Below, piece by piece: positions 4,535-30,131 of a DNA stretch of 30,752 bases. Both the position numbers and the translations under genes were made by a program. Below the pieces are notes generated by a model. That model made no database searches. It was not told where the DNA came from and saw only the letters and a list, made by a program, of their open reading frames with translations. How positions within the stretch are numbered: the first letter of the stretch is position 1; the number at the start of each line of letters is the position of its first letter. Location: the NCBI GenBank assembly GCA_035646995.1, contig DASROG010000569.1, positions 1 to 30,752 on the forward strand, in the 5' to 3' direction. The stretch is from Myxococcaceae bacterium (GTDB lineage: Bacteria > Myxococcota > Myxococcia > Myxococcales > Myxococcaceae).

Positions 4535-7500
4535 TCAGCGGGCGAGGACGAAGGCGCAGACCGAGTCGAGCTGCAGACGGGTTCCCTCGAGCGCCTCCAC
4601 CAGCGTGCCGTGGTACGCCCGCTCCTCCTCGAGCTGGGCCTGGATCGCGGCCGGAGGCAGAGCCTGGTGTCGCAGCGCGCGCTCGAGGCGGACGAGGGAG
4701 CGGTCGCGCTCGTCCTCGAGCTTGCTCCGTGCGGCTGCCTGCATCGCCTGAAGCTGCGCGGTCGCAGCGCGCGTCGCCTCGGCCATGCCCGGGTCGACGA
4801 ACCGGGCCAGGTCCGGGAACGCCGCGCGGACCTGATCGCCCTGAAGCGAGCGCCCCTCCTCGCGGGCGAGCAGGTCGAGCAGCCGCGGCTCCAGGCCGGG
4901 CGAGCCGTCCGCTCGAGCGGTCACCGCCACCCGGATCAGGCTCTGGTCGAGCACCCGCGAGAGCTGGCGCGAGGGAACACGCGCGCCGGGGCTGGTGTCC
5001 TCCGGCTCCGGCGGGACCACGTGGAAGAGCACCTCGAGGCCACGCGCCGGCGACCCCCGATGCTGGATGCCCCGGCACCCGTTGCGGCCGTAGGGTCCGT
5101 CGCGGAGGAAGCCGAACAGCGCCTCGACGATGGCGTGACCGGTGGCGAAGAAGTCGATCTCCTCCTGCTCCACGGCCGTGTCGCGCCAGAACGTCCCCAG
5201 GACGGTGCGCTCCTCGCCCAGCTGCAGCCCGGGCAACGCCTCGACCTTGAGCGCATGTCCGAAGTGGAAGGCGCACTGAAAGGCGTCCACCTGCTCGTCG
5301 GTGTCCACGCCGATCCCCACCCGGCGCGCCAGCTCGGTGACCGTCTCCTCCAGTCGTTCGTCCAGGTCCCGGGCGATGGCCCAGAGGCCGTCCTCCAGCG
5401 AGCCCTCCCGGTCCAGCTCGAGGCCAATGCGGGCCCCGGCACGATCGACGAGGGCCTGCACCGCCTCCCGGTCGAAGCTGCGCTCGTCGAGCAGCGGGTC
5501 ATAGGCGCGGCGGATCGCCGTCCTGGCCTCGGCCACCCGCGCCGCCAGCGTGGTGCGGTAGGCGGCCCGCTCGGCGGAGGTGGCCAGCGCCAGCCCGAGG
5601 ATGCGCGGCTCGACCTCCTCCAGCACCGCGTCCAGGCCGCCCACCGTCTCGCCGAACACGCCCACCGCGTCGGCGAGAAGGGAGAGGACGTCGGAGGCGA
5701 GCGTGCCCCGGACGTCGAAGACGTGGATGTCCACCGGCTGGGTCTGGCCGATCCGGTCGAGCCGGCCGATGCGCTGCTCCATCGTCGCCGGGCTCCACGG
5801 GAGGTCGTAGTTCACGAGGTGGTGGGCGAACTGGAAGTTCCGGCCCTCTCCGCCCACCTCGGTGGAGATCAGCAGCTTCGGGCCGTCCGGATCGCGGAAG
5901 CGCGCCACCTGCCGGTCGCGATCCACCAGCGCGAGCTCGCCGTGGTAGCCCAGCGCCTCGATTCCGTCCGCAGAGAGCAGCGTCCGGAGGCTCTCCAGGG
6001 TCGCCTGCGACTCGGTGAACAGCAGGACCTTTGCGGGGGGCTCCCCCTCCCAGACGTCGGCGAGGAGCGCCCGGAGCGCCTGGTACTTCGCATCGCGCTC
6101 GGGAAGTGAGGGCGGCGAGGGAAGGACTCCGCTCGCTGCCTGGGCGAAGGCCGCCGGAGACGAGTCGAGTCGTCGCAGCAAGCCGGCGAGCGCCGCGCCC
6201 CGGACCGAGCCGGCGCGCACCGCGGCCATCACCGCGTCCCGCGCCAGCAGCTCGGCCTCGGGGGGCTCGACGACGTGTCGGTGCAACCGTCGAGGGCTGA
6301 AACCGCCCACGCGCGCACGGCGGTTCCGGACCAGCGCCTCGGAGAGGCTGTAGGTCTCGGCCAGGTGGGCGAGCAGCGCGTCGCGATCGGTCAGCATGGC
6401 GAGCTCGCGATCGTCCGGAAAGCGGGCCCGGAGAGCGCCGACGGCGGTTGCGGCCTCGGGGTCGTCTCCCTCGAGCAGGGCACGGACGGTGCGCGAGAGC
6501 GCCTCCTGCCGCTCGATGCGCGCACGGAAGGCGGCAGCGTCGGGGGCGGTCACCGGGTCGAGCAGGGCCAGGAGAGCCCGGTACTCGTCCGGGTCGAGCT
6601 GCATCGGTGTCGCGGTCAGCAGCAGGAGCCCCCAGGTGCGGGTGGCGAGCGCCTCGATGGCGGCGAACGCCTTCTCGCCCCGGAGGTGGTGCGCCTCGTC
6701 GACGATGACCAGGTCCCAGCCCGTGGCCGCCACTTCCTGGACCTCCTCCGGCGAGCGGGAGAGGAGCTCGAGGCTGGTGACCACCCGCGGGAAGCGCTCC
6801 CAGGGCGAGACGGTGGGCTCCTCGCGACGGCTGCGGGCCAGCCGTTCACCGTCCACCAGGGTGAACAGCTGCTGGAACTTGTGGAACAGCTCCGCCAGCC
6901 ACTGGACGGTGAGATGGCTGGGGGCCACCACCAGGACACGCGCGGCGAGGCCGGAGAGGCGGAGCGCGGAGAAGATCATCCCCGCCTCGATGGTCTTCCC
7001 CAGTCCCACCTCGTCGGCGAGCACGAACCGGGGCCGGCGGGCTGAGAGCACCCGCTGCACCACGCCGACCTGGTGCGGCTTGACCATCACCCGGCTGGCG
7101 AGCAGCGCCCCGAGGGCATCGTTCCGTCGCTCCTCGTCCAGCGCCAGTGCCTGCCGGCGGAGGAGGAATGCGCGCGCATCGGCCACCCGCCCCTCGCGCA
7201 GCGCGGTGAGGAGATCGGTGTCCGGCGGAGGGGCGTGGACCTCTGACTCGGGGAGCTCGTCCTCGCTCCCATCCTCGTACCGGACGACGTAGCGGCGCAG
7301 CCCGCGGCCGCCCGGCTCCTCGCCGGTGATGGTCGCCGCCCGGCCCTTGCCGGTCCGCACCCGATCCCCGGGCACGAACGGATGCGGCAGCAGCGCGTTG
7401 CCGCGGGTGGAGACCAGGGTCGGCTGCGTGCGACCGGGGAAGAGAACCTCGGCCACCGCCCCGCCCTCGAGCGTGCGGACGAGGTGGCCCACGCCCCACT

Positions 7501-17915: not shown

Positions 17916-18860
17916 ATGTGGAACCATCCTCGAGTCCGGCGCTCCCTCGGACCCGCCCTGGTGCTGGTGCTCGGCGCGGCGTGCGCTCACGGGACCGGGC
18001 CATCGGGCGCCAGGACCGTCGAGCAGGTGGACGTGGTCCCCGACTTCCTCTCCGCCTGGCAGGAGGTGCGAAACGCGCCCCGCGGCGAGCAGGTGGCCCT
18101 CACCCGGCAGACGCTCCTCGCCCGCCACCCCGAGCTCTTTGGCCCGGAGGTGTTCGGCCCCGGCGCGGCCGTCGACCGGGACCTCGAGCGTCTCCTGGTG
18201 GAGATGCCCCGCCTCGAGCCGAAGCTCCGCGCCCTCTCCGAGCGGATGCCGGGCGAGGTCGAGCGCAGCACGCGCCGCTTCCTGGACCAGTTCCCCGAGG
18301 TGGCCTGGTCGGGGCCGGTCGCGCTGAGCCTCTCCTTCAGCCAGTTCGAGGCGGTGTGGCGGACGGTGCGCGGGCGACGAACGCTCGTCCTCGGTCTGGA
18401 CGCGATCGCCTACTACCGGGGCCCGTACGCGCCGGTGGAGCCGGTGGTCCATCACGCCCTGTCCGCATCCCTGCTCCCCGCGTGGAAGGGTCCGGGACCC
18501 GTGCCGCTCTGGTGGGTGCTCTGGGAGGAAGCCTTTCCGCTGGCCGCGGTCCGCACGCTGGATCCGGAAGCGACCGACGCCGACCTCCGGCTCTCGAACG
18601 AGGGAAGGGACCCGGCTGCGCTGGCCGCGCTCGCCCGGCGGGTGCGCGGGGCGCTCGACTCGACGAAGGACTCCGACCGCCGTCAGCTCACCGGAGGAAT
18701 CGGCGCGGCAGCCGCGACCACCGGCCGCTGGCTGGCGCTCCGCGTGGGGCAGCACGTCCTGGCCGGCCGGACCCTGCACGACGCCGCACGGCTGACGGGG
18801 CCGCAGCTCCGGAGCGCCGTGGAGGGGGCGCTGGTCGCGGTGGAGCGGCCGGGGAGTTGA
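17916..18860 (+). CDS. Lipoprotein resembling putative Zn-dependent proteases (DUF2268-like) but lacking HExxH
   Basis: Lipobox LGAAC (Cys23). The pattern RFLDQFP...LVLGLDAI...HHALSA...LWEE parallels that family's RF...FP / GVD / HELFH / LWxEG layout. Confidence 0.65.
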   Translation: MWNHPRVRRSLGPALVLVLGAACAHGTGPSGARTVEQVDVVPDFLSAWQEVRNAPRGEQVALTRQTLLARHPELFGPEVFGPGAAVDRDLERLLVEMPRLEPKLRALSERMPGEVERSTRRFLDQFPEVAWSGPVALSLSFSQFEAVWRTVRGRRTLVLGLDAIAYYRGPYAPVEPVVHHALSASLLPAWKGPGPVPLWWVLWEEAFPLAAVRTLDPEATDADLRLSNEGRDPAALAALARRVRGALDSTKDSDRRQLTGGIGAAAATTGRWLALRVGQHVLAGRTLHDAARLTGPQLRSAVEGALVAVERPGS

Positions 18861-18966
18861 CCGCCCGGCCGGAGTGCGGCGCGTTCGGGGCTTCACGGCA
18901 GGTCGCGCACCGGCGGCTGCAAGGCGAGAGCGGCGGCCGCTCGAGATCGGCTGAGCTGGAGCTTCC

Positions 18967-19838
18967 ATGCTCCTCGTCCTGCTCGCGCTGCTCACCGTCA
19001 CGGATGGGGGGCCCTCCGAGCTGGAGGAGTTCAAGGCGCGGGTCAACCGACCGGTGGCCGTCACCGTGCCGGGGACGGACAGGGTGCAGGTCCTCTCCGA
19101 CCGGCCCTATGGCCCGGGCGACAAGGCGCACCGCTTCGACGCCTACCTTCCCGAGCGCCGCACGGGGAAGGCCCCGGTGGTGCTGCTGGTGCACGCGGGG
19201 TGGGCGCCGACGTGCCGTTCCGCCCGAAGGACTGGGGTCTGTACCGCTCCTGGGGGCGGCTGCTCGCGGCCTCTGGCTACCTGGCCATCGCCTTCAACCA
19301 CCGTCTCGGCTTCCCGGAACCGATGCTGGCCGAGGCCGATCAGGACCTCCTCTCGATGCTGCAGACGGTCCGGGCGCAGTCCGGATCGCTCGGAGCAGAT
19401 CCATCGCGGATCGCGCTCGTCGCCTTCAGCGCGGGAGGTCCGCTGCTCTCGCGACCGCTGAGGGAGGAGCTGCCCGGCGTCCGGGCGCTCGCGGGTTTCT
19501 ATCCCTTCCTGGATCTGAGGCTGAGCCCGCTTCACCAGAGGTTTCTGAAGCCCGACGCCGTCACGGCGTTCTCGCCCGCGGCGCAGCTTCGCACGCCGGT
19601 GGCGCGACGGATGCCGTTCTTCCTGGCCCGCGCCGGCAAGGACGCCATTCCCGACATCCTTCCCGGCATCGACGCCTTCGTTGCCGAGTCGCTCGCCGCC
19701 GGGACACCACTCAGCCTCTTCAACCATCCCGAGGCGCCGCACGGCTTCGACCACGAAGCGGGGCCGCGCACCCGGGAGGTGCGCCTCGCGTTCCTGGCCT
19801 TCCTCCAGACCCACCTCGTGGAACGCCCTCCCTCCTGA
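18967..19838 (+). pseudogene. Exported alpha/beta hydrolase (esterase/lipase-like) split by a 1-nt frameshift
   Basis: The N-half (18967 frame) ends at PVVLLVH and the C-half (19200 frame) continues ADVPFRPKDWG...AFSAGG...KD...HGFD. Adding one G at 19195-19196 restores HGG and a single 290-aa ORF. This is either a real lesion or a sequencing error. Confidence 0.8.
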
Positions 19839-20086
19839 GCCTCGCCTCCGCGCGCCGGGCGGCTGCCCGTTCCCGGCCGGCGAGCTCGGGAACGCGGGCT
19901 CGCGGTGCCAGTCGCCGCCGGCAGCCCCCGGGCGAAGCCGTGGGAAGGACGCCCGAGACCCGGGAGCGCGCGCCGGGTCGCGGGGCACGACGACCGGCTT
20001 GGCGCGCTCGCGACCCCCGTGTTAACGCCCCAGCCCCCCGAAGGAGACTGCAGAGGTTCGAGGAAGACGCCGTGGGCAACGCCGGG

Positions 20087-21010
20087 ATGTCACTCTTGCG
20101 CTTCACCTTTCTCGGCACGTCGGCCGCCCAGCCGACGATCCACCGGAACCTTTCCGGCCTGGCGGTGAAGGCGGACTCGGACCTCCTGCTCTTCGACTGC
20201 GGGGAGGGAAGCCAGCGGCAGATGATCCGCTATGGCACCGGGTTCGCGGTGGACGCGGTCTTCTTCACTCACTTCCACGCCGACCACTACCTGGGAATCA
20301 TCGGCTTCCTGCGTACGCTGGGGATGATGGGGCGGGAGCAGAAGCTGGTGCTGCACGGGCCAGTCCCCGCGAAGCGGCTGCTCAACCAAGCAGTGCACCT
20401 GGGCGTGGACCAGCTCGGGTTCCCGCTGGAGATCGTGGAACTGAAGGACGGCGACCGGATCCAGCGCCATGGGTACTCGGTGCGCGCCATCGGGGTGCAG
20501 CACCGGATCAACGCCCTCGGCTACGTCCTGGAGGAGGATGTGCGCGCCGGCCGCTTCAACCTCGAACGAGCACGGGCGCTGGGCGTCCGCGAGGGGCCCG
20601 ACTTCGGGCGCCTGCAGCGGGGAGAGTCGGTGGTCGCCCTCGACGGGAAGACGGTGAACCCTTCCGACGTGATGGGCGCCGCCCGGCCCGGCCGGAAGCT
20701 GGTGCTCTCCGGCGACACCCGGCCCTGCGAGGCCGTGGCCGAGGCAGCCCGGGGCGCCGACATCCTCATCCACGAATCGACCTTCTCCGACGACGACCAG
20801 GCCCGGGCGCTGGAGACGCGGCACTCGACGGCGCGCGAGGCCGGACGCATCGCGCAGCAGGCCGGGGCTCACCGGCTCATCCTCACCCACCTGAGTTCGC
20901 GCTACGACACCGACTTCGGGCGGCTGCTCGCGCAGGCGCGCGAGGAGTTCCAGGGGCCGATCGACGTCGCCCACGACGGGCTCACCGTCGACATTCCGGT
21001 GCGCGAGTAG
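20087..21010 (+). CDS. rnz: Ribonuclease Z (tRNase Z)
   Basis: FLGTSAAQPT, FDCGEG, THFHADH, exosite GVREGP, SGDT, HEST and LTHLSSRY. ATG at 20087 lies inside the over-extended ORF 17714..21010. Confidence 0.95.
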   Translation: MSLLRFTFLGTSAAQPTIHRNLSGLAVKADSDLLLFDCGEGSQRQMIRYGTGFAVDAVFFTHFHADHYLGIIGFLRTLGMMGREQKLVLHGPVPAKRLLNQAVHLGVDQLGFPLEIVELKDGDRIQRHGYSVRAIGVQHRINALGYVLEEDVRAGRFNLERARALGVREGPDFGRLQRGESVVALDGKTVNPSDVMGAARPGRKLVLSGDTRPCEAVAEAARGADILIHESTFSDDDQARALETRHSTAREAGRIAQQAGAHRLILTHLSSRYDTDFGRLLAQAREEFQGPIDVAHDGLTVDIPVRE

Positions 21011-21670: not shown

Positions 21671-22066
21671 ATGCGTCGAGCCATCCTGGGTGTCTTCCTT
21701 CTTCTCGCCGCGTGTGGCGGCGATGTCCGCAGCTCGGACGGTGCGGTCAACCGTGCTCCCGGGGCCATCGACGAGCGAGCGGCCCGGGCCCGGTACCTCC
21801 TGACCTCCGCCGCGCAGGAGGTGGTCGCCTCCTTCGCCCGCTCCTACGACCAGTCCGCCCTGGACACCTGCCTGAACGCCTGGGTCGAGGAGGGGGACGC
21901 CACGATCCAGGGCGCGCCGGTGGCCAAGCCCCAGTCGGTCTTCCTCCGGCTGTTCCTCTCCCAGTGCCTCGCCGGCTCGGTGCCGGGGGACGTCCGTTCC
22001 GACGCGGCTCAGGGCCTCCGGAGCGCTTACCCCGCCGACGCCCGCATGCTCGGCATCGACCGGTAA
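21671..22066 (+). CDS. Hypothetical lipoprotein (131 aa)
   Basis: RBS GGAGG, MRR + hydrophobic stretch + lipobox LAAC, a predicted helical body and two additional Cys. Confidence 0.75.
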   Translation: MRRAILGVFLLLAACGGDVRSSDGAVNRAPGAIDERAARARYLLTSAAQEVVASFARSYDQSALDTCLNAWVEEGDATIQGAPVAKPQSVFLRLFLSQCLAGSVPGDVRSDAAQGLRSAYPADARMLGIDR

Positions 22067-22111: not shown

Positions 22112-24406
22112 ATGGCGGCCCTTCGCGTCTCATGGCCCTGGGCTCTGGCCCTGGCGACGGCGTCCACGGTGGTCGCGCTGATCGCCGGTCGGTTTCCGGG
22201 ACTGCGCAACGCCGAGGACGCCGCCTACGACCTGCGCCTCACCACCTTCACCTCCCCGCCTGCCCGCGAGAAGGACATCGTCATCCTCGGCGTCGATGAC
22301 GCCACGGTGCAGGGGCTCCGGGCCAACGAGAGCTATGCGCGCGCCTGGGGCAACTGGCCCTACGCCCGCTCGCTCTGGGCGCGCGTGTTGACCCACCTCG
22401 AGGCGATGGGGGCCCGCGCGGTGGTGCTCGATTTCACCATGGACGAGCAGAGCACCGATCGCGGACAGGACGCGCTCCTGCGCGAGGCCATCGCCCAGCT
22501 CCACATCCCGGTCGCGCTCGGCTACGCGGTGAACGTTCCCTCGCAGAACGGCGAGCCGTTGCCGGCGGTGACTCCCCGGAACTGGACGGTGGAGCACCGA
22601 GCGCCCCGCGACCGCCTGAAGCCGGAGGACCCGTTCGCCCCGCCGGAGGGGACGGAGGCGCCGCCCACGCCGGAGCTGGTGGCGAGCGTTCTGGCCTTCC
22701 CGGTCCAGTCCGGGCGCCCGCTCCCCGACCTCGCGGTGGACCTGCCGGGTGCGCCGCGGACCATGCGCCACCCCGTGCCGCCGGTCGGTCCGCTGCTCGA
22801 CGTGGTGCCCGCGCTCGGGCTCGTCTACCCGGAGCCGGATCCGGACGGGAAGCTCCGCCGCACCCGATTCGCCTACAGCGATGGGAACGACCGGTACGTG
22901 ACGCTCTCGGTCGCCCTCGCCGCGGATCTGCTCGGGGCCGAGGCGCTGGTGCTCTCCCCGGGAAGGCTGCAGCTCGGGCCGCGCACCCTCGCCATCGACG
23001 CGGACGGCAGCGCGGCGCTCGACTACGCCGGAACGCTCGGACAGCGGTTCGATGCCCGGAGCCTCCTCGCGGTGGTCGACGACTCGGTCCGCCGCGAGCG
23101 GGGCGAGCCGCCGCATCTCGGTCCAGATTTCTTCCGCGGGAAGGTGGTGCTCATCGCCGGCTTCGCGGTGGGCACCTTCGACATGAAGGCCACGCCGTTC
23201 GACAGCGCGACCGTGGGAGTGGTCAAGCCCGCCACCGAGCTGGCCGCGCTCCTCGGCGGCCGCTTCATCACCCGGGCACCTTTCGCGGTGACCGCGGCGC
23301 TGGCCTTCCTCTTCGCCTTCGGCTCGGCGCTGCTCATCCTCGCCACCCGGAACGTCTGGGTGGAGGGGCTGTGGCCGCTGGCCGCGCCGGTGCTGCTCCT
23401 CCTCGGCACGGGGTGGCTCCTGGTCTCGTCCAAGCTCCACGTGGCCCTGGTGGTCCCGGTGCTCGCGGCGTCCATCACCAGCCTCGCCGCGGTGGCCGTG
23501 AACCACCTCTACGCCGACCGCGAGCGGGCCCGGGTCAAGGCGATGTTCAGCCGCTACCTCTCACCCCAGGTGGTGGATCAGCTGGTCGCTCAGCCCGAGC
23601 TGCCGCGGCTGGCCGGTGAGCAGATCGAGGTCACCGCGTTCTTCTCCGACATCAAGGGCTTCAGCACCTTCAGCGAGCGCTTCGCCCACGACCCCCAGGG
23701 GCTGGTCCGGGTGCTCAACACCTACCTCACCCGGGTGAGCGGAGTGCTGCTGCAGCACGGGGCTTGCCTCGACAAGTACATCGGTGACGCGGTGGTGTGC
23801 ATCTTCGGCGCACCGCTGCGGATGGAGGACCACGCTCGCCGGGCCTGCGCCGCCGCGCTCGACGTCCAGGCCGAGGTGGAGCGCATCCGGTCCGACTTCA
23901 CGGCCCAGGGCCTCCCGGACGTCTACACCCGCGTCGGGCTCAACACCGCGGTGATGTTCGTCGGCAACTTCGGCAGCGAGCAGCTCTTCAACTACACGGC
24001 CATGGGCGACGGGATGAACCTGGCCTCGCGGCTCGAGGGCGCGAACAAGCCGTACGGCTCGCGGATCCTCATTGGACCGCGGACCCAGGCGCTGGTGTCG
24101 GATGCGTTCGAGACCCGCGAGCTGGACCGGGTCCGGGTGGCGGGGAAGCACGAGGCAGTGGCCATCCACGAGCTGCTCGGCCGGAAGGGCGATCTCTCTG
24201 CGGCGAAGCAGGAGGTCTGCGCGCTCTATGCCGAGGGCCTCGCGCTCTGGCGCGCGGCCCGCTTCTCCGAGGCGCGCGCGGTGTTCGCCCGTGCGGTCGC
24301 GCTGGACCCGGAAGACGCGCCTTCCCGTGCGCTGCTGGCGCGGTGCGACAGGCACCTGGCCTCGCCCCCACCCGCTTTCGATGGAGTCGTCGACCTGGAC
24401 AAGTAG
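22112..24406 (+). CDS. CHASE2-domain class III adenylate cyclase with C-terminal TPR-like region
   Basis: N-terminal TM segment, CHASE2 motifs (DIVILGVDD, GNWPYARSLWA, AVVLDF, PDPDGKLRR, KVVLIA) and 3 TM helices. Cyclase motifs are FSDIKGFS, DKYIGDA and NYTAMGDGMNLASRLEG; the Lys and Thr indicate ATP specificity. The tail is YAEGLALW...DGVVDLDK. Confidence 0.92.
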   Translation: MAALRVSWPWALALATASTVVALIAGRFPGLRNAEDAAYDLRLTTFTSPPAREKDIVILGVDDATVQGLRANESYARAWGNWPYARSLWARVLTHLEAMGARAVVLDFTMDEQSTDRGQDALLREAIAQLHIPVALGYAVNVPSQNGEPLPAVTPRNWTVEHRAPRDRLKPEDPFAPPEGTEAPPTPELVASVLAFPVQSGRPLPDLAVDLPGAPRTMRHPVPPVGPLLDVVPALGLVYPEPDPDGKLRRTRFAYSDGNDRYVTLSVALAADLLGAEALVLSPGRLQLGPRTLAIDADGSAALDYAGTLGQRFDARSLLAVVDDSVRRERGEPPHLGPDFFRGKVVLIAGFAVGTFDMKATPFDSATVGVVKPATELAALLGGRFITRAPFAVTAALAFLFAFGSALLILATRNVWVEGLWPLAAPVLLLLGTGWLLVSSKLHVALVVPVLAASITSLAAVAVNHLYADRERARVKAMFSRYLSPQVVDQLVAQPELPRLAGEQIEVTAFFSDIKGFSTFSERFAHDPQGLVRVLNTYLTRVSGVLLQHGACLDKYIGDAVVCIFGAPLRMEDHARRACAAALDVQAEVERIRSDFTAQGLPDVYTRVGLNTAVMFVGNFGSEQLFNYTAMGDGMNLASRLEGANKPYGSRILIGPRTQALVSDAFETRELDRVRVAGKHEAVAIHELLGRKGDLSAAKQEVCALYAEGLALWRAARFSEARAVFARAVALDPEDAPSRALLARCDRHLASPPPAFDGVVDLDK

Positions 24407-24438
24407 ACTCTCTGGCCGCCTTCCTGGAGGGTTTTCCG

Positions 24439-24963
24439 ATGCGACAGTCAGCAGGGGTGCTGGTGCTCGTCCTGGCGGCGGGCGCGGCGTGGGCGCTCGC
24501 CCCGGGAGACCGGGTCTACGTGCGCGGCCGCGACGTGGCCGTCCTCCAGAGCGCCGCGGCCAGCGCGGCGACGCTGGTCAAGCTCCAGCCCGGTGACGCG
24601 GTGGTCTGGCGCGGCGCAGACAAGAAGAAGCCGACCTGGCACCACGTGGAGACGGCCGGGAAGAGCGGCTTCGTCTACTTCGCCAACCTGTCCACCACTC
24701 CGCCGGCGTCCGAGCTGCTCACCTCCCCGACCGGCGCGAAGACGGTCGACGCACAGGCCTTCGCCAGCTCCGGCGCCGCCGGGAAGGCGCTCACCGAGGG
24801 CGCGATCCGCTACGGCAACCAGGACGAGAAGAACAAGGGCGCGCTGCATCCGACGATGAAGGAGGCGGTTCGCCAGACCCAGACGCTGGAGGCCATCGCC
24901 GCCCAGCGCACCGATGCCGAGCTCGCCGCCCAGGTGGCCCGGGTCACCGGAGAGCCGCAGTGA
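24439..24963 (+). CDS. Secreted bacterial SH3-domain protein with helical C-terminal tail
   Basis: RBS GGAGG and a signal peptide (AWA-L). SH3b-like segment VYVRGRDVAVLQS...LQPGDAV...WHHVETAGKSGFVYFANLS. True start 24439 lies inside ORF-track entry 23797..24963. Confidence 0.8.
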   Translation: MRQSAGVLVLVLAAGAAWALAPGDRVYVRGRDVAVLQSAAASAATLVKLQPGDAVVWRGADKKKPTWHHVETAGKSGFVYFANLSTTPPASELLTSPTGAKTVDAQAFASSGAAGKALTEGAIRYGNQDEKNKGALHPTMKEAVRQTQTLEAIAAQRTDAELAAQVARVTGEPQ

Positions 24964-26042
24964 GGCGCGCGCTCCTCTCCCTGGCGATGCTGGGCCTCCT
25001 GGCCTGTGCCGCCGCCTCGGGCTTGATGAAGGGCGACACCAGCTCGATCGTCGGTGGAGTCGCCGAGTCGACCGGCACGGTGGTGGGCCTCACGCAGGAC
25101 CTCTCCAAGTGCGATCAGATCGGCGCGGCCGAGATCACCTTCGACGAGGAGCGGGCCATCGGCGGCGCGGTGGCACTCAACTGGGTGCAGCAGGGCGGCG
25201 GCCTGCTGGTGGACGTTCCCACCGGCGACGCGGCTGCGCTGGCAAGTCCCAGGACGCTCGGGATCCAGGACACGCCCCGAAACCGCCTCCACAAGTACCT
25301 GAACGTGGTGGGGAGGAACCTGGCCTCTCGCTCGACCCGGCCCACGCTGCAGTGGACCTTCGGAGTGCTGGACTCGGAGGTGGTGAACGCGGTCTCGGCG
25401 CCCGGCGGGTACGTCTTCGTGACCCGCGGGCTCCTCAAGCGGGTGAGCAACGAAGCGGCGCTGGCCGGCGTCCTCTCCCACGAGATCGCCCACGTCACCC
25501 GGAAGGACGCCTTCGCCATCTACCAGAAGACCAAGGTGGACCAGTGCAAGAGCCTCGCCTACGCCAAGGCCGGCCAGAAGGAGGGCTCGGCGGTGCTCCG
25601 CTCCTACTCGCCGGGATTCATCAACCAGGCCTACGCCGCCCTCCAGGCGTTCAGCGGCGGTGCGCTGGATCTCAACGCCGCGGCGAACAACGCGTTGCTC
25701 ACCCTGTTCAGCGACGAGTTCGTCCACCGCTATCTCGAGGGCGGCTACGCCCGCGACCAGGAGATCCAGGCGGACGCCACCGGTCTCGAGCTCACCGTGG
25801 CCACGGGGTACAGCCCGCGCGGGTTCGTGGACTTCATCGGTGCGCTGCCCCCGGGACAGAACTTCTTCGCGCACCACCCCGCGCCGAGCGACCGCGTGGC
25901 CTCGATGAAGCTGCTGCTGGGGAAGACGCGTGTCGCGACCGTGAGCTCCAGCGCGCCGGGCTCACCCTTCTCGCCGTTCAGCCAGGACGTGTCGCAGCTG
26001 CCGCTGCTCCCGCTGCGCGACGAGCTCGCCGCAGCGCGCTGA
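24960..26042 (+). CDS. M48 family metallopeptidase, lipoprotein
   Basis: GTGA overlap with the SH3 gene and lipobox LLAC. Motifs VNAVSAPGGYVFVTRGL, HEIAH (25479-25493), QEIQAD and HPAPSDR. Confidence 0.9.
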   Translation: MRRALLSLAMLGLLACAAASGLMKGDTSSIVGGVAESTGTVVGLTQDLSKCDQIGAAEITFDEERAIGGAVALNWVQQGGGLLVDVPTGDAAALASPRTLGIQDTPRNRLHKYLNVVGRNLASRSTRPTLQWTFGVLDSEVVNAVSAPGGYVFVTRGLLKRVSNEAALAGVLSHEIAHVTRKDAFAIYQKTKVDQCKSLAYAKAGQKEGSAVLRSYSPGFINQAYAALQAFSGGALDLNAAANNALLTLFSDEFVHRYLEGGYARDQEIQADATGLELTVATGYSPRGFVDFIGALPPGQNFFAHHPAPSDRVASMKLLLGKTRVATVSSSAPGSPFSPFSQDVSQLPLLPLRDELAAAR

Positions 26043-26102: not shown

Positions 26103-27416
26103 TCAGCGCCGCGCGGCCTCGGTCAGCGCCCGGTGGACGCTCTCCAGCGCCTTCCGGGCCTCGAGCAGCTCGGTGCGCTCGGCGGTGAGATCCGCCACCT
26201 GACGGGCGAGCGTGTCTCGCTCGACGCTCAGCACCTCGACGCTCTTGCGCAGCTGCACCCCGTCGTCGCGGAAGCGCTCCAGCTCTCCTGCCAGCCGCTC
26301 CTCCTCGGAGAGGCTGTCGGCGAGCTCCGCATCCTTCCGTGTCAGATCGGCCGCCAGGCGCTCGCGCTGCTCCCGCTCGGCTAGGGCCTGCGTCCGCGCC
26401 TCCTGGACCGCGAGCAGCGCCTCGTCCCGCTCGCCCTCCACCGACTGGAGCTCGCGTTCCAGCTCGGACAGTAAACCCGCCCGCTCCTCCATCTGCGCGA
26501 CGAGCCGGCGTGCCTCCTCCACCCGTCCGCGGGCCTCCTCGGTCGCGCGCTCGGCAGAGCGGCGGGCCACGTCGAGGTCGTGCTGGAGCGCGGCGTTGTG
26601 CTGCTTCACCTGGGTGAGCTCGGCCTGGAGGTGGGCGATGCGCTCCACGGCGAGCACGCCGGCCGCGGCCACGCTGGTGGGCAACGGCTCGGGACGCGGG
26701 TGCTCGCGCACCGTGCGGAGACGCTCCCGGAGACGCTCGCGGCGCGCGGCGGTGTCGTCGACAGCGTCCGGCGGCGCCGCCTGGCGCGCGACGGGGGCGA
26801 CGACCGTCTCGGCGCGCACCGTCGTCGACGGGCGGCCCGGAACCGCGGCGGCCGGCACGGAGACAGGCCCTGCCCCGGACGGGACAAGCCGGCGCTCGGG
26901 TGGCGCAGCGGGTGGCGCCGAGGAGCCCCGGCTCGCCGCGGACGGCGCGGAAGAGGTGGATGCACGCCCGTTCGGTCGCGCGTCGACCTCGGCCGGGCGA
27001 CGGGCGGACGGCGCAGGACCGGCGACGACCGGGGCGCGCGTGGACGCCGATCCGCTCGCCGCGGCCGCTCCCCGCACCTTGCCCCCGGCCGCCACGGTGA
27101 CCCGCTCCTCCTCCTGGAGGACCATTGGCTCGGCGGCGACCGCCGCCTCGCGCAGGGTCGCCTCGACCCGGCTCCGCGTGGAGACCTCCTCCGCATCCTC
27201 GGCGTCGCTCGCCCGCGACGCCGCGGCGAGCACCTCGCGCGCCGTGGGCGCCTCGACCTCGGCGGCTCGGGACTGGCCGGCCACCTGGGCAGCGACCTCG
27301 TACACCCAGTCCTCCTCCGTCCCCCGAGAGTCGGGAGCCACGGCGCCGGAGGGCGGACCACCGAGCTTCAGCCTCGGCTTGGCGCGGGACACGTTCTGAT
27401 CGAAGGCTTTCTTCAT
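26103..27416 (-). CDS. pomX: PomX, division-site positioning protein (ATPase-activating N-terminal peptide, disordered region, C-terminal coiled coil)
   Basis: N-terminus MKKAFDQNVSRAKPRLKL matches M. xanthus PomX as I recall it, including K13/R15. Ala/Pro-rich middle, long coiled coil, and located directly downstream of pomZ. Confidence 0.88.
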   Translation of the reverse strand: MKKAFDQNVSRAKPRLKLGGPPSGAVAPDSRGTEEDWVYEVAAQVAGQSRAAEVEAPTAREVLAAASRASDAEDAEEVSTRSRVEATLREAAVAAEPMVLQEEERVTVAAGGKVRGAAAASGSASTRAPVVAGPAPSARRPAEVDARPNGRASTSSAPSAASRGSSAPPAAPPERRLVPSGAGPVSVPAAAVPGRPSTTVRAETVVAPVARQAAPPDAVDDTAARRERLRERLRTVREHPRPEPLPTSVAAAGVLAVERIAHLQAELTQVKQHNAALQHDLDVARRSAERATEEARGRVEEARRLVAQMEERAGLLSELERELQSVEGERDEALLAVQEARTQALAEREQRERLAADLTRKDAELADSLSEEERLAGELERFRDDGVQLRKSVEVLSVERDTLARQVADLTAERTELLEARKALESVHRALTEAARR

Positions 27417-27426
27417 CGGCTCTCCC

Positions 27427-28380
27427 CTACCCCGCCCGCGCATCCGTGGCGGCCCTTACCCGTGACTGATCCAGCCGGTGCAGCACTTCCCGGAGGAACG
27501 CATCCACGTCGTGGGCGCCCTTCGAGTCCCGCTCGAAGATGAACACCGGCACGCCCTCGCTCGAGGCCTGGGCGAACTTCGTGCACTGCCGCACCAGGGT
27601 GGTCAGCAGGTATTCCGGGTAGTGCTCCCGCAGCGCGGCCAGGGCTTCCTTGGCCAGCTTGTAGGTCTGGTTGAACGCGTTGACGACGATGAACACGTGG
27701 TCGAGCACGTGGTTCAGGTCCTCTTCGAGGCTCTGCACCGTCTCGAAGAGCAGCTTCAGCCCGTGGAACGACAGGAAGTCGGGTAGCACCGGGACGAAGA
27801 GGTCCTGCGCCGCCATCAGCGCGTTCAGGTTCAGCAGCCCGAACGAGGGCGGCGCGTCGAACACCACCACGTCGTAGCGGTCGTCGATCTCCTCCACTGC
27901 CTTGCGGAGCTTGAACTCGCGGCCGGCCAGCGGCATCAGCGCCAGATCCACGGTGCTCATCCCCAGGTTGCTGGGGACGAAGTCGAGGTTGGGGAGCGGG
28001 GTGTGCTGGATGGCCTCGGACAGCGGTGCCTTGCGCACCAGCACGTGCAGCAGCGTCTTCTCGAAGTCCTCGCCCTCGTACCCGAGGCACTTCGTGGCGT
28101 GGCCCTGACTGTCCAGATCCACCAGCAGCACCGAGTAGCCCAGCTCCGCCAGGCGGTAGGCGTAGGACGTCGAGAGCGAGGTCTTGCCCGTCCCGCCCTT
28201 GAAGTTGAGGAACAGCTGCTTCCGGTGCCCGATCGGCCGCGGGTGGATCCGCAACGCCTTGCGCAGCGCCCAGAGGTCCTGGGCCGAGTAACTGTCCTGG
28301 GCCAGCGCAGACCGGAGCGACTTGGGCGGAATGCCGAGGAGCTCGGCCGTCGTCTTGGGGGTGTAGATGGGGAGATCCAT
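27427..28380 (-). CDS. pomZ: PomZ, ParA/MinD-family ATPase
   Basis: Deviant Walker A KGGTGKT, DLDSQGH, DAPP and RQCTKF. G62, K66, D90 and K268 fall at the positions of the characterised M. xanthus PomZ residues. Confidence 0.92.
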   Translation of the reverse strand: MDLPIYTPKTTAELLGIPPKSLRSALAQDSYSAQDLWALRKALRIHPRPIGHRKQLFLNFKGGTGKTSLSTSYAYRLAELGYSVLLVDLDSQGHATKCLGYEGEDFEKTLLHVLVRKAPLSEAIQHTPLPNLDFVPSNLGMSTVDLALMPLAGREFKLRKAVEEIDDRYDVVVFDAPPSFGLLNLNALMAAQDLFVPVLPDFLSFHGLKLLFETVQSLEEDLNHVLDHVFIVVNAFNQTYKLAKEALAALREHYPEYLLTTLVRQCTKFAQASSEGVPVFIFERDSKGAHDVDAFLREVLHRLDQSRVRAATDARAG

Positions 28381-28400
28381 CTCGTCAATCCTCGTGCTCG

Positions 28401-30131
28401 TCAGGCGACGAACAGCTTCGCCCCGCGCCGGACCACCTGCCCGCGCGCCGTGAGAAGTGCTGCGGCCTCGATCACCCGCTCGTCGGTGACGCCCAGCTGC
28501 GTGGCCAGGTCCAAAACCGTTCGGCCCCGCATCGAGGTGCGGAGCTCGGAGGTGATCTGGAGGCAGAGGGCCTCGTCGGCGTGGAGGCCGGCCGCGCCGT
28601 GGTCCCGGGCCGCGGGTCCGGGGGGGAGCGTCACCTGGATCGGGTCCGGCCCGGTGCGAGACGATGGTGCCGGGTCCTCGATCTCCGCGGGCATCTCGAA
28701 CCCCAAGGCCAACTCGCGCGGCTCGGCCTCCGGCTCGATGCGGGGCGGAGAACGTGTGGGCTGGCCGAGGGGCTTCGCGCGCTGCGCGAGCGGCACCGGA
28801 GGCACGGTCGCCAGCTGACGCACCTCGCGCCGCCGCTCCTCGTCGGAGAGGGTCGCGATGTGCCCCACGTCCATGCCCAGGAGGCCGGAGAGGCTCCGGG
28901 CGGCGGCGCGCCGGACCCCGAGGTCCGGATCCTCCAGCGCTCCGAGGAGCCGCGAGCGGGCCTGTTCGCCCCCGGCAGCGCCCGCGGCGAGGACCGCGAG
29001 CCGGCGGACCTCCGGATCCGGGTCCCGAGACACCTGCCGTTCGAGCTCGAGCATCCGCTCCGGGCCCAGCGACACCGCGAGGAGCGTCGTGCGGCGGCGG
29101 ACCGAGGCGTCCGCGTCGTGCGCCGCGTGCGACAGGTGCGCCGGGGCGGACTCCGGATCCAGATGGGTGATGGCCCGGAGCGCGGCGATGCGCACCACAG
29201 GCTCGGGCGCATTCAGGAGCGGCTGCACGACCGCGGCTCCCTCGCGGCTGGCCAGGGCGCGGAAGGCCTCCAGGAGCGCCACCAGCACCGTGTCGTCCCG
29301 CTCGGCGTGGAGAGCCACGGCGAGCGCCGGAGAGGCGGCGCGATCCCCGAGCGTGCGAAGGCGCTCGGCAGCCCGCGAGCGTGCGGACGGGTCGGGGCTG
29401 GACAGCTCGCGGATCGAAAAGCCGAACAGGCTCTCCTCCCCGAGCCGCGGGCTGGGCGGCACGGCGAGGCGGCCCTGCTCGAAGAGCCGCTCGGCCTCCC
29501 GGGTCACCGCGAGGAGGGTGGCCGCGGAGGACACTGACGGGGAGCCGGGCGGCGTGGAGACGCGCGGCGCCGGCGCCGGGCGGGCTGGGCCCCCTGGAAC
29601 GGGCGCGGCCGCCGGAGCGGAGGGCCCGTTTCGCGCCGCCTCGCTGTGCACCGCGACCGTCTCCAGGGCCTCGGCCCGCACCGGGTCCAGCGCCCCGGAC
29701 GGCGCGGATGGGCCGTCCAGTCGCCGCGCGGGGGCGGCCTCGAGCGCCGGGGCCCGCAGGGCGATCGCCTCGGCCCGGAGGTCGGAGATGAAGCCGGCGA
29801 GGTCGAAGTCGAGACCGGTCCCGTTCCCCTGGATCCGGGACGCCTCCAGGACCTTGCCCATCAGGCCGGCCCGCTCGGCGCGCATCGCGTCGAGCACCCG
29901 GGCGCCCTCCTCGCGGTCACGGTGCGCCCGGCCGAGCTCCACCTCCAGCTCGGCCACGCGGCGGCGAAGCTCGACCTCGCGGTGCGCGGCGGAGGCCAGG
30001 TCGGCGCGCAGGGCGTCCACCTCGGCCCGAAGGGTCGCCGCATCTGCCTGAAGCGTCTCCGAGCGTGCCTCGAAATAGACGATCTTCTCGAGCGCACTCC
30101 GGAGGAGCGCCTCTGCCCGTCCATCGCTCAC
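28401..30131 (-). CDS. pomY: PomY, coiled-coil/HEAT-repeat division protein
   Basis: N-terminal coiled coil (ALEKIVYFEAR...), Pro/Ala-rich linker, HEAT repeats (EPVVRIAAL, DASVRRR, DPEVRRLA, DLGVRRAAA) and a Pro-rich linker. Synteny with pomZ and pomX. Confidence 0.85.
   Translation of the reverse strand: MSDGRAEALLRSALEKIVYFEARSETLQADAATLRAEVDALRADLASAAHREVELRRRVAELEVELGRAHRDREEGARVLDAMRAERAGLMGKVLEASRIQGNGTGLDFDLAGFISDLRAEAIALRAPALEAAPARRLDGPSAPSGALDPVRAEALETVAVHSEAARNGPSAPAAAPVPGGPARPAPAPRVSTPPGSPSVSSAATLLAVTREAERLFEQGRLAVPPSPRLGEESLFGFSIRELSSPDPSARSRAAERLRTLGDRAASPALAVALHAERDDTVLVALLEAFRALASREGAAVVQPLLNAPEPVVRIAALRAITHLDPESAPAHLSHAAHDADASVRRRTTLLAVSLGPERMLELERQVSRDPDPEVRRLAVLAAGAAGGEQARSRLLGALEDPDLGVRRAAARSLSGLLGMDVGHIATLSDEERRREVRQLATVPPVPLAQRAKPLGQPTRSPPRIEPEAEPRELALGFEMPAEIEDPAPSSRTGPDPIQVTLPPGPAARDHGAAGLHADEALCLQITSELRTSMRGRTVLDLATQLGVTDERVIEAAALLTARGQVVRRGAKLFVA

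What the first reader, a model, noticed from the sequence alone, without database searches (positions are those of the whole stretch)
22112..26042. CHASE2 adenylate cyclase - secreted SH3 protein - M48 lipoprotein peptidase: candidate undescribed envelope signalling system
Seen: three co-oriented, tightly packed genes (32-nt gap with RBS, then a GTGA overlap). They encode an inner-membrane receptor cyclase with a complete catalytic set and ATP-specifying K/T, an exported SH3b protein with a separable tail (AFASSGAAGKAL then helices), and a lipid-anchored M48 peptidase with intact HExxH/E/H and a long helical segment after HExxH. All three are predicted to have extracytoplasmic parts in the same compartment. 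Known: CHASE2 ligands are largely unknown, SH3b domains often bind peptidoglycan or proteins, and M48 lipoproteins (LoiP/BepA type) act in envelope protein quality control. I recall this trio recurring in other genome annotations but know of no functional study; this is unverified. Inference: the SH3 protein, or a fragment released or removed by M48, is the CHASE2 ligand, converting cell-wall or envelope status into cAMP.
Basis: partly seen in the sequence, partly recalled or inferred. Interest (0 to 1): 0.78.

Follow-up and report, generated by a model that had tools for sequence, protein, structure and literature searches.

The report
CHASE2 cyclase, SH3 protein, M48 protease operon
A membrane sensor that makes cAMP is encoded in one tight operon with a small secreted SH3 protein and a lipid-anchored zinc protease; the trio recurs in myxobacteria and proteobacteria, no paper found describes it, and it gives a testable lead on what the orphan CHASE2 sensor domain detects.

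Summary
Window 22112-26042 holds three intact, co-oriented genes:
- a 4-TM CHASE2 receptor adenylate cyclase (class IIIb, Lys/Thr) with a C-terminal TPR;
- an exported 174-aa protein (SH3T) made of an SH3b-like domain, a disordered linker carrying the near-invariant motif AFASSGAAxKAL, and a helical tail;
- an M48 lipoprotein with HExxH and Glu intact.

The gap between the first two genes is 32 nt with a GGAGGG RBS. The last two overlap by GTGA.

Across about 100 non-identical Myxococcota loci:
- M48 follows SH3T in 99 of 101, with a 4-nt start/stop overlap in 97;
- the CHASE2 cyclase precedes SH3T in 85 of 98.

I also found the trio in Beta/Gammaproteobacteria. No paper found describes it. 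This scan had already noted it 55 times on other DNA.

New here: the SH3-plus-motif module is homologous to the C-terminal payload of Rhs/YD-shell proteins, which ends right after the motif. SH3T-M48 pairs also occur without a cyclase.

Best reading (inferred, untested): M48 processes or removes SH3T, and the CHASE2 domain reads SH3T's state to set cAMP. This resembles ExoR-JspA-ExoS or CpxP-DegP-CpxA.

The parts
22112..24406 (+). CHASE2 receptor adenylate cyclase, 764 aa (P0001). TM1 is residues 2-25, the periplasmic CHASE2 domain about 26-390, TM2-4 residues 391-467, the class IIIb cyclase domain 506-682 and the TPR 704-745.
   Evidence: Translation and Pfam. The AF2 model of residues 1-470 has pLDDT 91 and pTM 0.90 with four TM helices. 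Catalytic residues are conserved.
22187..23281 (+). Periplasmic CHASE2 sensor domain (residues 26-390).
   Evidence: Pfam PF05226 covers residues 19-402. The AF2 secondary structure is alpha/beta plus a beta-rich part. There is no convincing solved structural relative.
23627..24157 (+). Class III nucleotidyl cyclase catalytic domain with D513, K555, D559, T629, N636 and R640.
   Evidence: The nearest solved domains are bacterial adenylate cyclases.
24407..24438 (+). 32-nt intergenic spacer with the RBS GGAGGG at 24426-24431.
   Evidence: The median cyclase-SH3T gap in 88 related loci is 26 nt, range -4 to 107.
24439..24963 (+). SH3T, an exported 174-aa protein (P0002). Sec signal peptide is residues 1-19 (AWA/L), the SH3b-like domain 24-80, the linker 81-106, the motif 107-118 and the helical tail 119-174.
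24757..24792 (+). Near-invariant linear motif AFASSGAAGKAL, in a stretch with pLDDT below 50.
   Evidence: Kept in 53-61 of 61 orthologues at every position but one (the 9th is T/G/V), although the proteins are only about 35-40% identical overall. Low model confidence for residues 90-118. Homologous Rhs C-terminal payloads end right after this motif.
24960..26042 (+). M48 zinc metallopeptidase lipoprotein, 360 aa (P0003). The GTG start overlaps the SH3T stop, the lipobox is LLAC with Cys16, HEIAH is residues 174-178 and the third ligand is E268.
   Evidence: The same 4-nt overlap is present in 97 of 101 related loci.

Best explanation
This is a three-gene envelope-to-cAMP signalling module.

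Shown from sequence:
- A 4-TM receptor places a roughly 365-residue CHASE2 domain in the periplasm and an intact ATP-specific class IIIb cyclase in the cytoplasm.
- An Sec-exported SH3b-like protein and an M48 zinc peptidase lipoprotein are made from translationally coupled genes, so they are co-produced in the same compartment.

Inferred:
- SH3T and M48 are a dedicated pair in which the peptidase processes or degrades SH3T.
- Cleavage most likely falls at or next to the invariant linker motif AFASSGAAxKAL, which would separate the SH3 module from the helical tail.
- The CHASE2 domain reads whether SH3T is intact and bound or cleaved and absent, and raises or lowers cAMP synthesis accordingly.
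- Envelope conditions that change M48 activity, or the availability of SH3T, would be the physiological input. Peptidoglycan binding by the SH3b domain is one possible route.

The logic matches known sensor / periplasmic accessory protein / protease circuits, here with a cyclase as output.
For: Gene arrangement in Myxococcota:
- M48 is directly downstream of SH3T in 99 of 101 non-identical loci, with a 4-nt start/stop overlap in 97.
- The CHASE2 cyclase is directly upstream in 85 of 98, with a median gap of 26 nt.
- 5 of the 13 exceptions are second SH3T-M48 copies placed behind a complete trio.
- The trio travels as a unit. It occurs with pomXYZ next door in most Myxococcaceae and without it in other families (L061, L066, L069-L071).

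Other phyla:
- A Thiobacillus MAG has SH3_3, then M48, then a CHASE2 cyclase, then an MBL/PDEase_II gene.
- 32 of 300 genomes sampled from its class carry the SH3 homologue. M48 lies next to it in 27 of the 29 other loci, and at least 17 show the order cyclase-SH3-M48.

Proteins:
- Catalytic residues of both enzymes and the lipobox Cys are conserved.
- The strongest conservation in SH3T is a 12-residue motif in a low-confidence, probably disordered linker. That is typical of a recognition or cleavage site.
- Proteobacterial partners have the same layout, with their own conserved linker motif.
- Homologous Rhs payloads stop right after the motif, which marks a natural module boundary there.
- Divergence of the CHASE2 domain tracks that of SH3T (r 0.89) and M48 (r 0.85) more closely than that of the cyclase domain (r 0.45-0.52). 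This is weak evidence.

Precedents in the literature:
- The M48+LysM lipoprotein JspA, with LppA, lowers the level of ExoR, the periplasmic inhibitor of the kinase ExoS (PMC10659215).
- CHASE2 cyclases of S. meliloti respond to a protein signal through an outer-membrane partner (PMC13001267).
- CHASE2 kinases are encoded with an exported LysM/FecR protein (PMC5192318; seen again in L147).
Against: - No interaction, cleavage or cyclase activity was tested. Everything beyond co-occurrence is inference.
- SH3T-M48 pairs exist without a cyclase, next to TonB-dependent receptors with HmuY or Big_2, or a tricorn/S41 protease. So the pair can work alone or with other partners.
- One locus has SH3T behind a different cyclase and no M48 (L132).
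- Other CHASE2 cyclases use unrelated partners.
- Translational coupling fits a stable two-subunit complex at least as well as an enzyme-substrate pair.
- The mirror-tree correlation can arise from shared phylogeny alone.
- The AF2 model of SH3T outside the SH3 domain is poor.
- No RNA data exist for this soil organism.
Confidence: 0.4

Rival explanations
1. SH3T is not the substrate but the adaptor or co-factor subunit of the M48 peptidase. This would resemble LppA for JspA, NlpI for Prc, or the TPR domain of BepA supplied in trans. Its tail would dock on M48, and its SH3b domain would anchor the complex to peptidoglycan or recruit a target. The target could be the CHASE2 domain itself or another envelope protein whose fragments CHASE2 senses.
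For: - The near-universal 4-nt overlap suggests equimolar co-production, as expected for subunits of one complex.
- JspA carries its peptidoglycan-binding LysM domain in cis and also needs a small lipoprotein partner.
- Extra M48 copies without extra SH3T occur in many loci, so one adaptor could serve several proteases.
- The pair works in non-cyclase contexts.
Against: - The most conserved part of SH3T is a short motif in a disordered linker, not a folded docking surface.
- The helical tail, the presumed docking part, is the most variable region: mean distance 1.22 against 1.06 for the SH3 domain.
- Tandem duplications usually copy SH3T together with M48.
Confidence: 0.25
2. SH3T-M48 is an autonomous envelope maintenance or protein quality-control pair. 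It is merely co-transcribed with the cyclase, for example so that its level follows the same promoter, or because both belong to one stress regulon. There is no direct signal from the pair to the CHASE2 domain.
For: - The pair occurs without a cyclase.
- M48 lipoproteins of the BepA/LoiP type are quality-control proteases (established knowledge; nearest families).
- Conserved order within one bacterial family can partly reflect inherited synteny. The neighbouring pomXYZ genes are conserved too.
Against: - The same three gene families are adjacent in a second phylum, with both gene orders, and in Myxococcota families where the surroundings differ.
- Gaps are operon-like everywhere.
- Periplasmic parts co-diverge.
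Confidence: 0.2
3. The SH3-plus-motif module is a released protein signal or effector. M48 would mature it by removing the tail, and it would act between cells. CHASE2 cyclases of the producer or its neighbours would be the receptor, and Rhs/YD-shell proteins would deliver the same module in other Myxococcota.
For: - The C-terminal payload after the DPxGL motif of roughly 2030-aa Rhs/teneurin-like proteins is homologous to SH3T residues about 20-118 (E 1e-19 to 1e-22) and ends at the motif.
- Myxobacteria are known to use protease-generated signals such as the C-signal (established knowledge, not tested here).
Against: - There is no evidence of export beyond the periplasm.
- The genes downstream of these Rhs genes are unrelated to each other. 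No tail-like gene, M48 or CHASE2 gene lies within about 7 kb.
- Only four Rhs loci were seen.
Confidence: 0.1

Closest known systems
ExoR - ExoS/ChvI with the JspA (M48+LysM lipoprotein) and LppA proteolysis branch, Sinorhizobium meliloti (PMC10659215)
   Same: - An inner-membrane sensor is paired with a periplasmic accessory protein.
- The accessory protein's level is set by an M48 lipoprotein peptidase that works with a small partner.
- A peptidoglycan-binding type of domain belongs to the protease system.
   Different: - The output here is a class III adenylate cyclase, not a histidine kinase.
- The sensor domain is CHASE2.
- The accessory protein is an SH3b-tail protein, not the Sel1-repeat protein ExoR.
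- The wall-binding-type domain sits on a separate protein.
- The genes form one operon, whereas jspA, lppA and exoR are dispersed.
- No proteolysis has been shown here.
[quoted passage not shown]
   Same: - The receptor architecture is the same: CHASE2, TM helices and a class III cyclase.
- Signal perception depends on a separate envelope protein.
- The signal is proteinaceous.
   Different: - The partner there is a beta-barrel outer-membrane protein and the signal comes from a plant.
- No SH3 or M48 genes were adjacent in the alphaproteobacterial plasmid loci I inspected.
CpxA - CpxP - DegP envelope stress circuit of E. coli (established knowledge)
   Same: A periplasmic accessory protein modulates a membrane sensor and is removed by a periplasmic protease under stress. 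This is the logic proposed here.
   Different: All the protein families are unrelated. The output is a kinase, the genes are not in one operon, and the mechanism there is shown by experiment.
RR - LysM/FecR protein - CHASE2 histidine kinase operon ('BiofilmReg', Burkholderia; PMC5192318)
   Same: A CHASE2 receptor is encoded next to an exported protein with a wall-binding-type domain. The same operon sits beside the trio's counterpart in the Thiobacillus genome (L147).
   Different: There is no protease, the accessory protein is LysM+FecR, and the output is a two-component system.
BepA, LoiP and the Geobacter M48 peptidase 3C37
   Same: They share the M48 fold and zinc site. 3C37 is the nearest solved relative (E 4e-17).
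   Different: The window's protein scores far below the BepA and LoiP equivalog cut-offs. It has no TPR domain, and it carries about 40 extra residues between HExxH and the Glu ligand.

Membership tests
CHASE2 sensor domain (PF05226) | Profile match above the curated cut-off. | tested here: met
   127.7 bits against a cut-off of 26.3, residues 19-402.
CHASE2 sensor domain (PF05226) | Extracytoplasmic loop between an N-terminal TM helix and a C-terminal TM bundle, followed by a cytoplasmic output domain. | tested here: met
   The AF2 model (pLDDT 91) has helices at 2-25, 391-412, 415-440 and 447-467 around an alpha/beta plus beta domain. The cyclase domain follows.
Class III adenylate cyclase, subclass IIIb | Two metal-binding Asp, substrate-specifying Lys plus Thr, and transition-state Asn and Arg. 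| tested here: met
   D513, D559, K555, T629, N636 and R640 are present and kept in 57-61 of 61 orthologues.
Class III adenylate cyclase, subclass IIIb | Makes cAMP from ATP. | not testable with these tools
   Needs an enzyme assay or E. coli cya complementation.
Bacterial SH3 (SH3b) domain | Match to a Pfam or NCBIfam SH3 model. | tested here: not met
   No Pfam hit. NCBIfam SH3_and_anchor gives 13.1 bits against a cut-off of 65. The proteobacterial counterpart does match SH3_3, at 35 bits.
Bacterial SH3 (SH3b) domain | SH3-like small beta-barrel fold. | tested here: inconclusive
   AF2 gives six strands at residues 24-80 with pLDDT about 80. Foldseek best hits are SH3b domains (2krs, 4krt, 9ovi), but only at E 1e-3 to 1e-2. 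Atlas feature neighbours carry SH3_3/SH3_4.
Bacterial SH3 (SH3b) domain | Binds peptidoglycan or a peptide ligand. | not testable with these tools
   Needs a binding assay.
Peptidase family M48 | Profile match, HExxH and a downstream Glu zinc ligand. | tested here: met
   91.8 bits against a cut-off of 20.3. H174, E175, H178 and E268 are invariant in 61 of 61.
BepA (NF052400) / LoiP (NF052399) equivalogs | Score above the curated cut-off; for BepA also a C-terminal TPR domain. | tested here: not met
   62.9 bits against 570, and 21.3 against 365. No TPR on the peptidase.
Bacterial lipoprotein | Signal peptide ending in a lipobox with an invariant Cys. | tested here: met
   LLAC with Cys16. The Cys column is invariant in 61 of 61 orthologues. 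Lipidation itself was not tested.
Sensor / periplasmic modulator / protease circuit (ExoR-JspA or CpxP-DegP type) | The modulator binds the sensor's periplasmic domain. | not testable with these tools
   No complex prediction or binding assay was available.
Sensor / periplasmic modulator / protease circuit (ExoR-JspA or CpxP-DegP type) | The protease cleaves the modulator and this changes sensor output. | not testable with these tools
   Only the gene linkage and the conserved linker motif bear on it.
Rhs / YD-shell polymorphic toxin payload | Domain placed after the DPxGL motif at the C-terminus of a YD-shell protein. | tested here: not met
   SH3T is a free-standing exported protein. Only its SH3-plus-motif part is homologous to such payloads.

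The most novel reading that the evidence does not exclude
The SH3-plus-motif module, freed from its helical tail by the dedicated M48 peptidase, is the direct protein ligand of the CHASE2 domain. That would be the first defined ligand class for CHASE2, and a self-made one. The homologous payloads of Rhs/YD-shell proteins in other Myxococcota would then be delivered versions of the same ligand, acting on CHASE2 receptors of other cells.
Probability: 0.12. Interest if true: 0.9.

Novelty: new variant of a known kind. Interest (0 to 1): 0.64.

Why it matters
What most CHASE2 domains sense has stayed unknown; a 2016 paper still states that no recognised factor is known (PMC5192318). The one studied case, in S. 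meliloti, points to a protein signal that needs an envelope partner.

A dedicated, co-inherited pair of an exported SH3 protein and an M48 peptidase, next to CHASE2 cyclases in two phyla, narrows the search to two concrete proteins. It also gives simple experiments: cAMP read-out, cleavage and binding. The trio is present in cultured myxobacteria (Corallococcus macrosporus DSM 14697 and Myxococcus fulvus HW-1), so genetics should be possible.

If the model holds, it extends regulated periplasmic proteolysis, known for kinases and anti-sigma factors, to cAMP signalling. It would also give a function to a widespread unnamed small-protein family and a subgroup of M48 lipoproteins.

Tried and rejected
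- Pfam and NCBIfam on SH3T gave no usable hit.
- The word-based homologue search reached only close relatives. The exhaustive profile search gave 237 representative clusters, and every one whose context I checked was myxobacterial.
- The search for related loci with the broad alignment failed for lack of a conserved stretch. With the motif AFASSGAA[TG] it returned 58 loci, all labelled Myxococcota or delta-proteobacterial MAGs. So this exact motif is lineage-specific.
- Reaching other phyla through distant M48 homologues failed. The two I checked (P0314, P0307) sit in unrelated contexts.
- Plasmid CHASE2 cyclases showed other partners or none.
- The upstream MBL-fold gene and the 131-aa ORF at 21671-22066 are conserved only within the window's genus, so I dropped them from the module.
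- Many extra 'SH3T' matches in large genomes are SH3-only hits in other proteins, not paralogues.
- Genes downstream of the Rhs homologues share no family and do not resemble the SH3T tail.
- Fold searches with the CHASE2 model found only generic TM-bundle similarity, plus a weak solute-binding-protein row at Z 5.2.
- The promoter and terminator scan found nothing, which is uninformative at 70% G+C.
- No RNA runs hold this soil sequence.
- I could not read the two M. xanthus CyaA/CyaB osmosensing papers. Whether either cyclase is the orthologue stays open.
- Searches for MXAN_0637 to MXAN_0642 found no paper.
- No complex prediction was possible with the tools.

Full report
OBSERVATION

The three ORFs are open exactly as described: 22112-24406, 24439-24963 and 24960-26042, all on the + strand.
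- The cyclase stops at 24404-24406. GGAGGG lies at 24426-24431, 7 nt before the SH3T ATG, so the gap is 32 nt.
- The M48 GTG start overlaps the SH3T TGA stop as GTGA.
- The window is about 70% G+C. It comes from a 75%-complete soil MAG of the family that holds Myxococcus and Corallococcus.

ANATOMY

Cyclase (P0001)
- Pfam gives CHASE2 at 127.7 bits, Guanylate_cyc at 68 bits and a weak C-terminal TPR.
- An AF2 model of residues 1-470, built on 34 orthologues, is very confident (pLDDT 91, pTM 0.90).
- It shows TM1 (2-25), a periplasmic domain of about 365 residues with alpha/beta and beta-rich parts, and three more TM helices (391-467). The cyclase domain is therefore cytoplasmic.
- The six class III catalytic residues are present, with the Lys/Thr pair that marks ATP-specific subclass IIIb. 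They are kept in 57-61 of 61 orthologues.
- No solved structure resembles the CHASE2 part. The sequence search hit only cyclase domains. Foldseek found nothing. The exhaustive aligner matched only the TM bundle, plus one weak solute-binding-protein row at Z 5.2.

SH3T (P0002)
- It has a Sec signal peptide (AWA/L), then a six-stranded domain at residues 24-80 with pLDDT about 80.
- The best structural matches of that domain are bacterial SH3b domains, but only at E about 1e-3. Pfam does not recognise it.
- Next comes a low-confidence linker (residues 90-118, pLDDT below 50), then short helices.
- The linker carries AFASSGAAGKAL. This is the most conserved part of the family: 11 of its 12 positions are kept in 53-61 of 61 orthologues, and the 9th varies (T/G/V), although whole-protein identity is about 35-40%.

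M48 (P0003)
- Pfam scores it at 91.8 bits.
- HEIAH, E268 and the lipobox Cys16 are invariant in 61 of 61.
- It scores far below the BepA and LoiP equivalog cut-offs.
- Its nearest solved relative is the Geobacter peptidase 3C37. Compared with that, it has about 40 extra residues between HExxH and the Glu ligand.

CONSERVATION IN MYXOCOCCOTA

A profile of SH3T found 237 representative clusters in 1.84 billion proteins. In 401 genomes sampled from the phylum:
- 152 of 171 genomes of the window's own family have a match, and 17 of 229 outside it.
- This tally includes one unpublished genome, G196. No other claim rests on it.

I fetched about 110 loci and scored them with profiles built from the window's proteins. 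Among non-identical full-length SH3T genes:
- M48 lies directly downstream in 99 of 101.
- The M48 start overlaps the SH3T stop by 4 nt in 97 of 101.
- The CHASE2 cyclase lies directly upstream in 85 of 98, with a median gap of 26 nt.
- 5 of the 13 exceptions are second SH3T-M48 copies placed behind a complete trio (L035, L040, L042, L074, L055).

The genomes are kin, so these counts are not independent events. They do span more than 20 genera and SH3T identities down to about 30%. The trio is usually followed, convergently, by pomX-pomZ (about 60 loci). It also occurs without them in other families (L061, L066, L069-L071), so it moves as a unit.

THE SH3T-M48 PAIR IS THE TIGHTER UNIT

Pairs without a cyclase sit in three other contexts:
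- behind a TonB-dependent receptor plus HmuY (L049);
- behind a TonB-dependent receptor plus a Big_2 protein (L053, L075);
- behind a tricorn/S41-type protease (L068).

One locus has SH3T behind a different cyclase (SRPBCC+DUF5939+cyclase) and no M48 (L132). Extra M48 copies without SH3T are common.

OTHER PHYLA

Earlier notes of this scan report the trio in 55 findings from at least 48 genomes. I treated these as leads and tested the point myself.
- A Thiobacillus MAG, reached by chance through a distant M48 hit, carries four tightly coupled genes. They are SH3_3 (194 aa), M48 (318 aa), a CHASE2 cyclase (734 aa) and an MBL/class-II-phosphodiesterase-like gene.
- Its second CHASE2 gene is the known RR-LysM/FecR-CHASE2 kinase operon (PMC5192318).
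- In 300 genomes sampled from that class, 32 have the SH3 homologue.
- Of the 29 loci other than the query, 27 show M48 next to it, and at least 17 show the window's own order, cyclase-SH3-M48.
- These SH3 partners have the same layout as SH3T: signal peptide, SH3 domain, Gly/Ser-rich linker, a conserved linker motif (here S.vT.tG.RGL..E) and a helical tail. ATGA or GTGA at the SH3 stop recurs.
- In contrast, alphaproteobacterial plasmid CHASE2 cyclases have FecR+TPR, or a hypothetical protein plus a ShlB/FhaC-type barrel, as neighbours. One Legionella and one Leptospira plasmid cyclase show no such accessory neighbour.

So CHASE2 receptors seem generally to work with lineage-specific exported partners, and SH3+M48 is one widespread solution.

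A NEW LINK

SH3T residues about 20-118 cover the SH3 domain, the linker and the motif. They are homologous (E 1e-11 to 1e-22) to the extreme C-terminus of four roughly 2030-aa proteins in three genomes from other Myxococcota families.
- The one scanned with Pfam (L058) has PASTA, TTR, NHL and YD-shell/RHS domains.
- The homologous part lies right after the DPxGL boundary that precedes Rhs payloads.
- These payloads end immediately after their version of the motif (for example ..SYGAGTKG-stop).
- The motif therefore marks a natural C-terminal edge of the module, and the helical tail of SH3T is an add-on.
- This is what one would expect if the tail is removed at the motif, but it does not prove it.
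- Downstream genes of these Rhs loci share no family. No tail-like gene, M48 or CHASE2 gene lies within about 7 kb.

MECHANISM

Shown: gene structure, topology, intact catalytic sites, co-production, and co-inheritance across phyla.

Inferred: M48 acts on SH3T at the linker motif, and CHASE2 reads SH3T's state to set cAMP. I give this about 0.4.

Rivals:
- SH3T is the adaptor subunit of the protease rather than its substrate (0.25).
- The pair is an autonomous envelope module that is only co-transcribed with the cyclase (0.2).
- SH3T is a released, Rhs-like protein signal (0.1).

A mirror-tree test adds only weak support, because shared phylogeny can produce it. CHASE2-SH3T gives r 0.89 and CHASE2-M48 r 0.85, against 0.45-0.52 for the cyclase domain.

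COMPARISON WITH KNOWN SYSTEMS

- ExoR-ExoS/ChvI with the M48+LysM lipoprotein JspA and LppA is the closest working analogue (PMC10659215).
- NsrA with CyaD1, CyaD2 and CyaK is the closest relative on the receptor side (PMC13001267).
- CpxP-DegP-CpxA shares the logic.

I found no paper that joins CHASE2 with M48 or SH3. Public records name the orthologues only 'SH3 domain-containing protein' and 'CHASE2 domain-containing protein'. Whether M. xanthus CyaA or CyaB, reported as osmosensing cyclases, is the orthologue could not be checked.

VERDICT

This is a real, strongly conserved, cross-phylum operon that is undescribed in the literature I could search, though this scan has seen it repeatedly. 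Its mechanism is only inferred. I rate it a new variant of a known kind of circuit, with interest 0.64.

Noticed in passing
L058 1211-7315 (+); L060 7037-13132 (-); also L057 and L059 (match ends near 7007 and 7019, - strand): Rhs-like proteins of about 2030 aa carry, after the DPxGL boundary, a roughly 110-aa C-terminal payload homologous to the SH3-plus-motif part of SH3T. The payload ends right after the motif. L058 has PASTA, TTR, NHL and YD-shell/RHS domains. Their downstream genes are unrelated to each other and to the SH3T tail.
   Followed up: partly
window 26103-30131 (- strand): The genes convergent with the trio look like pomX (446 aa), pomZ (ParA-like, 317 aa) and pomY (coiled coil + HEAT, 576 aa). 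PomX/PomZ homologues lie next to the trio in about 60 related loci. This is probably inherited synteny; a link to cell division was not examined.
   Followed up: partly
window 17714-21010 (+); L146 7095-7859 (+): An MBL-fold domain with weak Apyc1 similarity lies upstream of the cyclase, but only within the window's genus. In Thiobacillus, an MBL protein with a class-II cAMP phosphodiesterase match lies directly after the CHASE2 cyclase. Both are candidates for the enzyme that degrades cAMP.
   Followed up: partly
L049 4296-8622; L053 1-5347; L075 5925-11981; L068 3485-8496: SH3T-M48 pairs without a cyclase sit behind TonB-dependent receptors (with HmuY or a Big_2 protein) or behind a tricorn/S41-type protease.
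   Followed up: partly
L132 4649-8152: SH3T follows a different cyclase (SRPBCC + DUF5939 + Guanylate_cyc) and a 167-aa ORF. No M48 is present; a TOBE/NfeD-like ORF follows instead.
   Followed up: no
L035, L040, L042, L074/L098, L055: The SH3T-M48 pair is duplicated in tandem behind one cyclase. Many other loci carry one to three extra M48 genes without an extra SH3T.
   Followed up: partly
L147 2357-6599 (- strand): The Thiobacillus genome that has the trio also carries the RR - LysM/FecR - CHASE2 histidine kinase operon described in Burkholderia.
   Followed up: no
window 21671-22066 (+): A 131-aa ORF just upstream of the cyclase has no Pfam match and is conserved (37-66% identity) only in the window's own genus.
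   Followed up: partly
P0001 residues 26-390 (window 22187-23281): Across 34 CHASE2 domains many invariant or near-invariant positions are acidic: D40, D62, D107, E112, D120, E241, D243, D245, D257, D298 and D357. This could be a cation site or a site for a basic ligand. I could not map them on the model.
   Followed up: no
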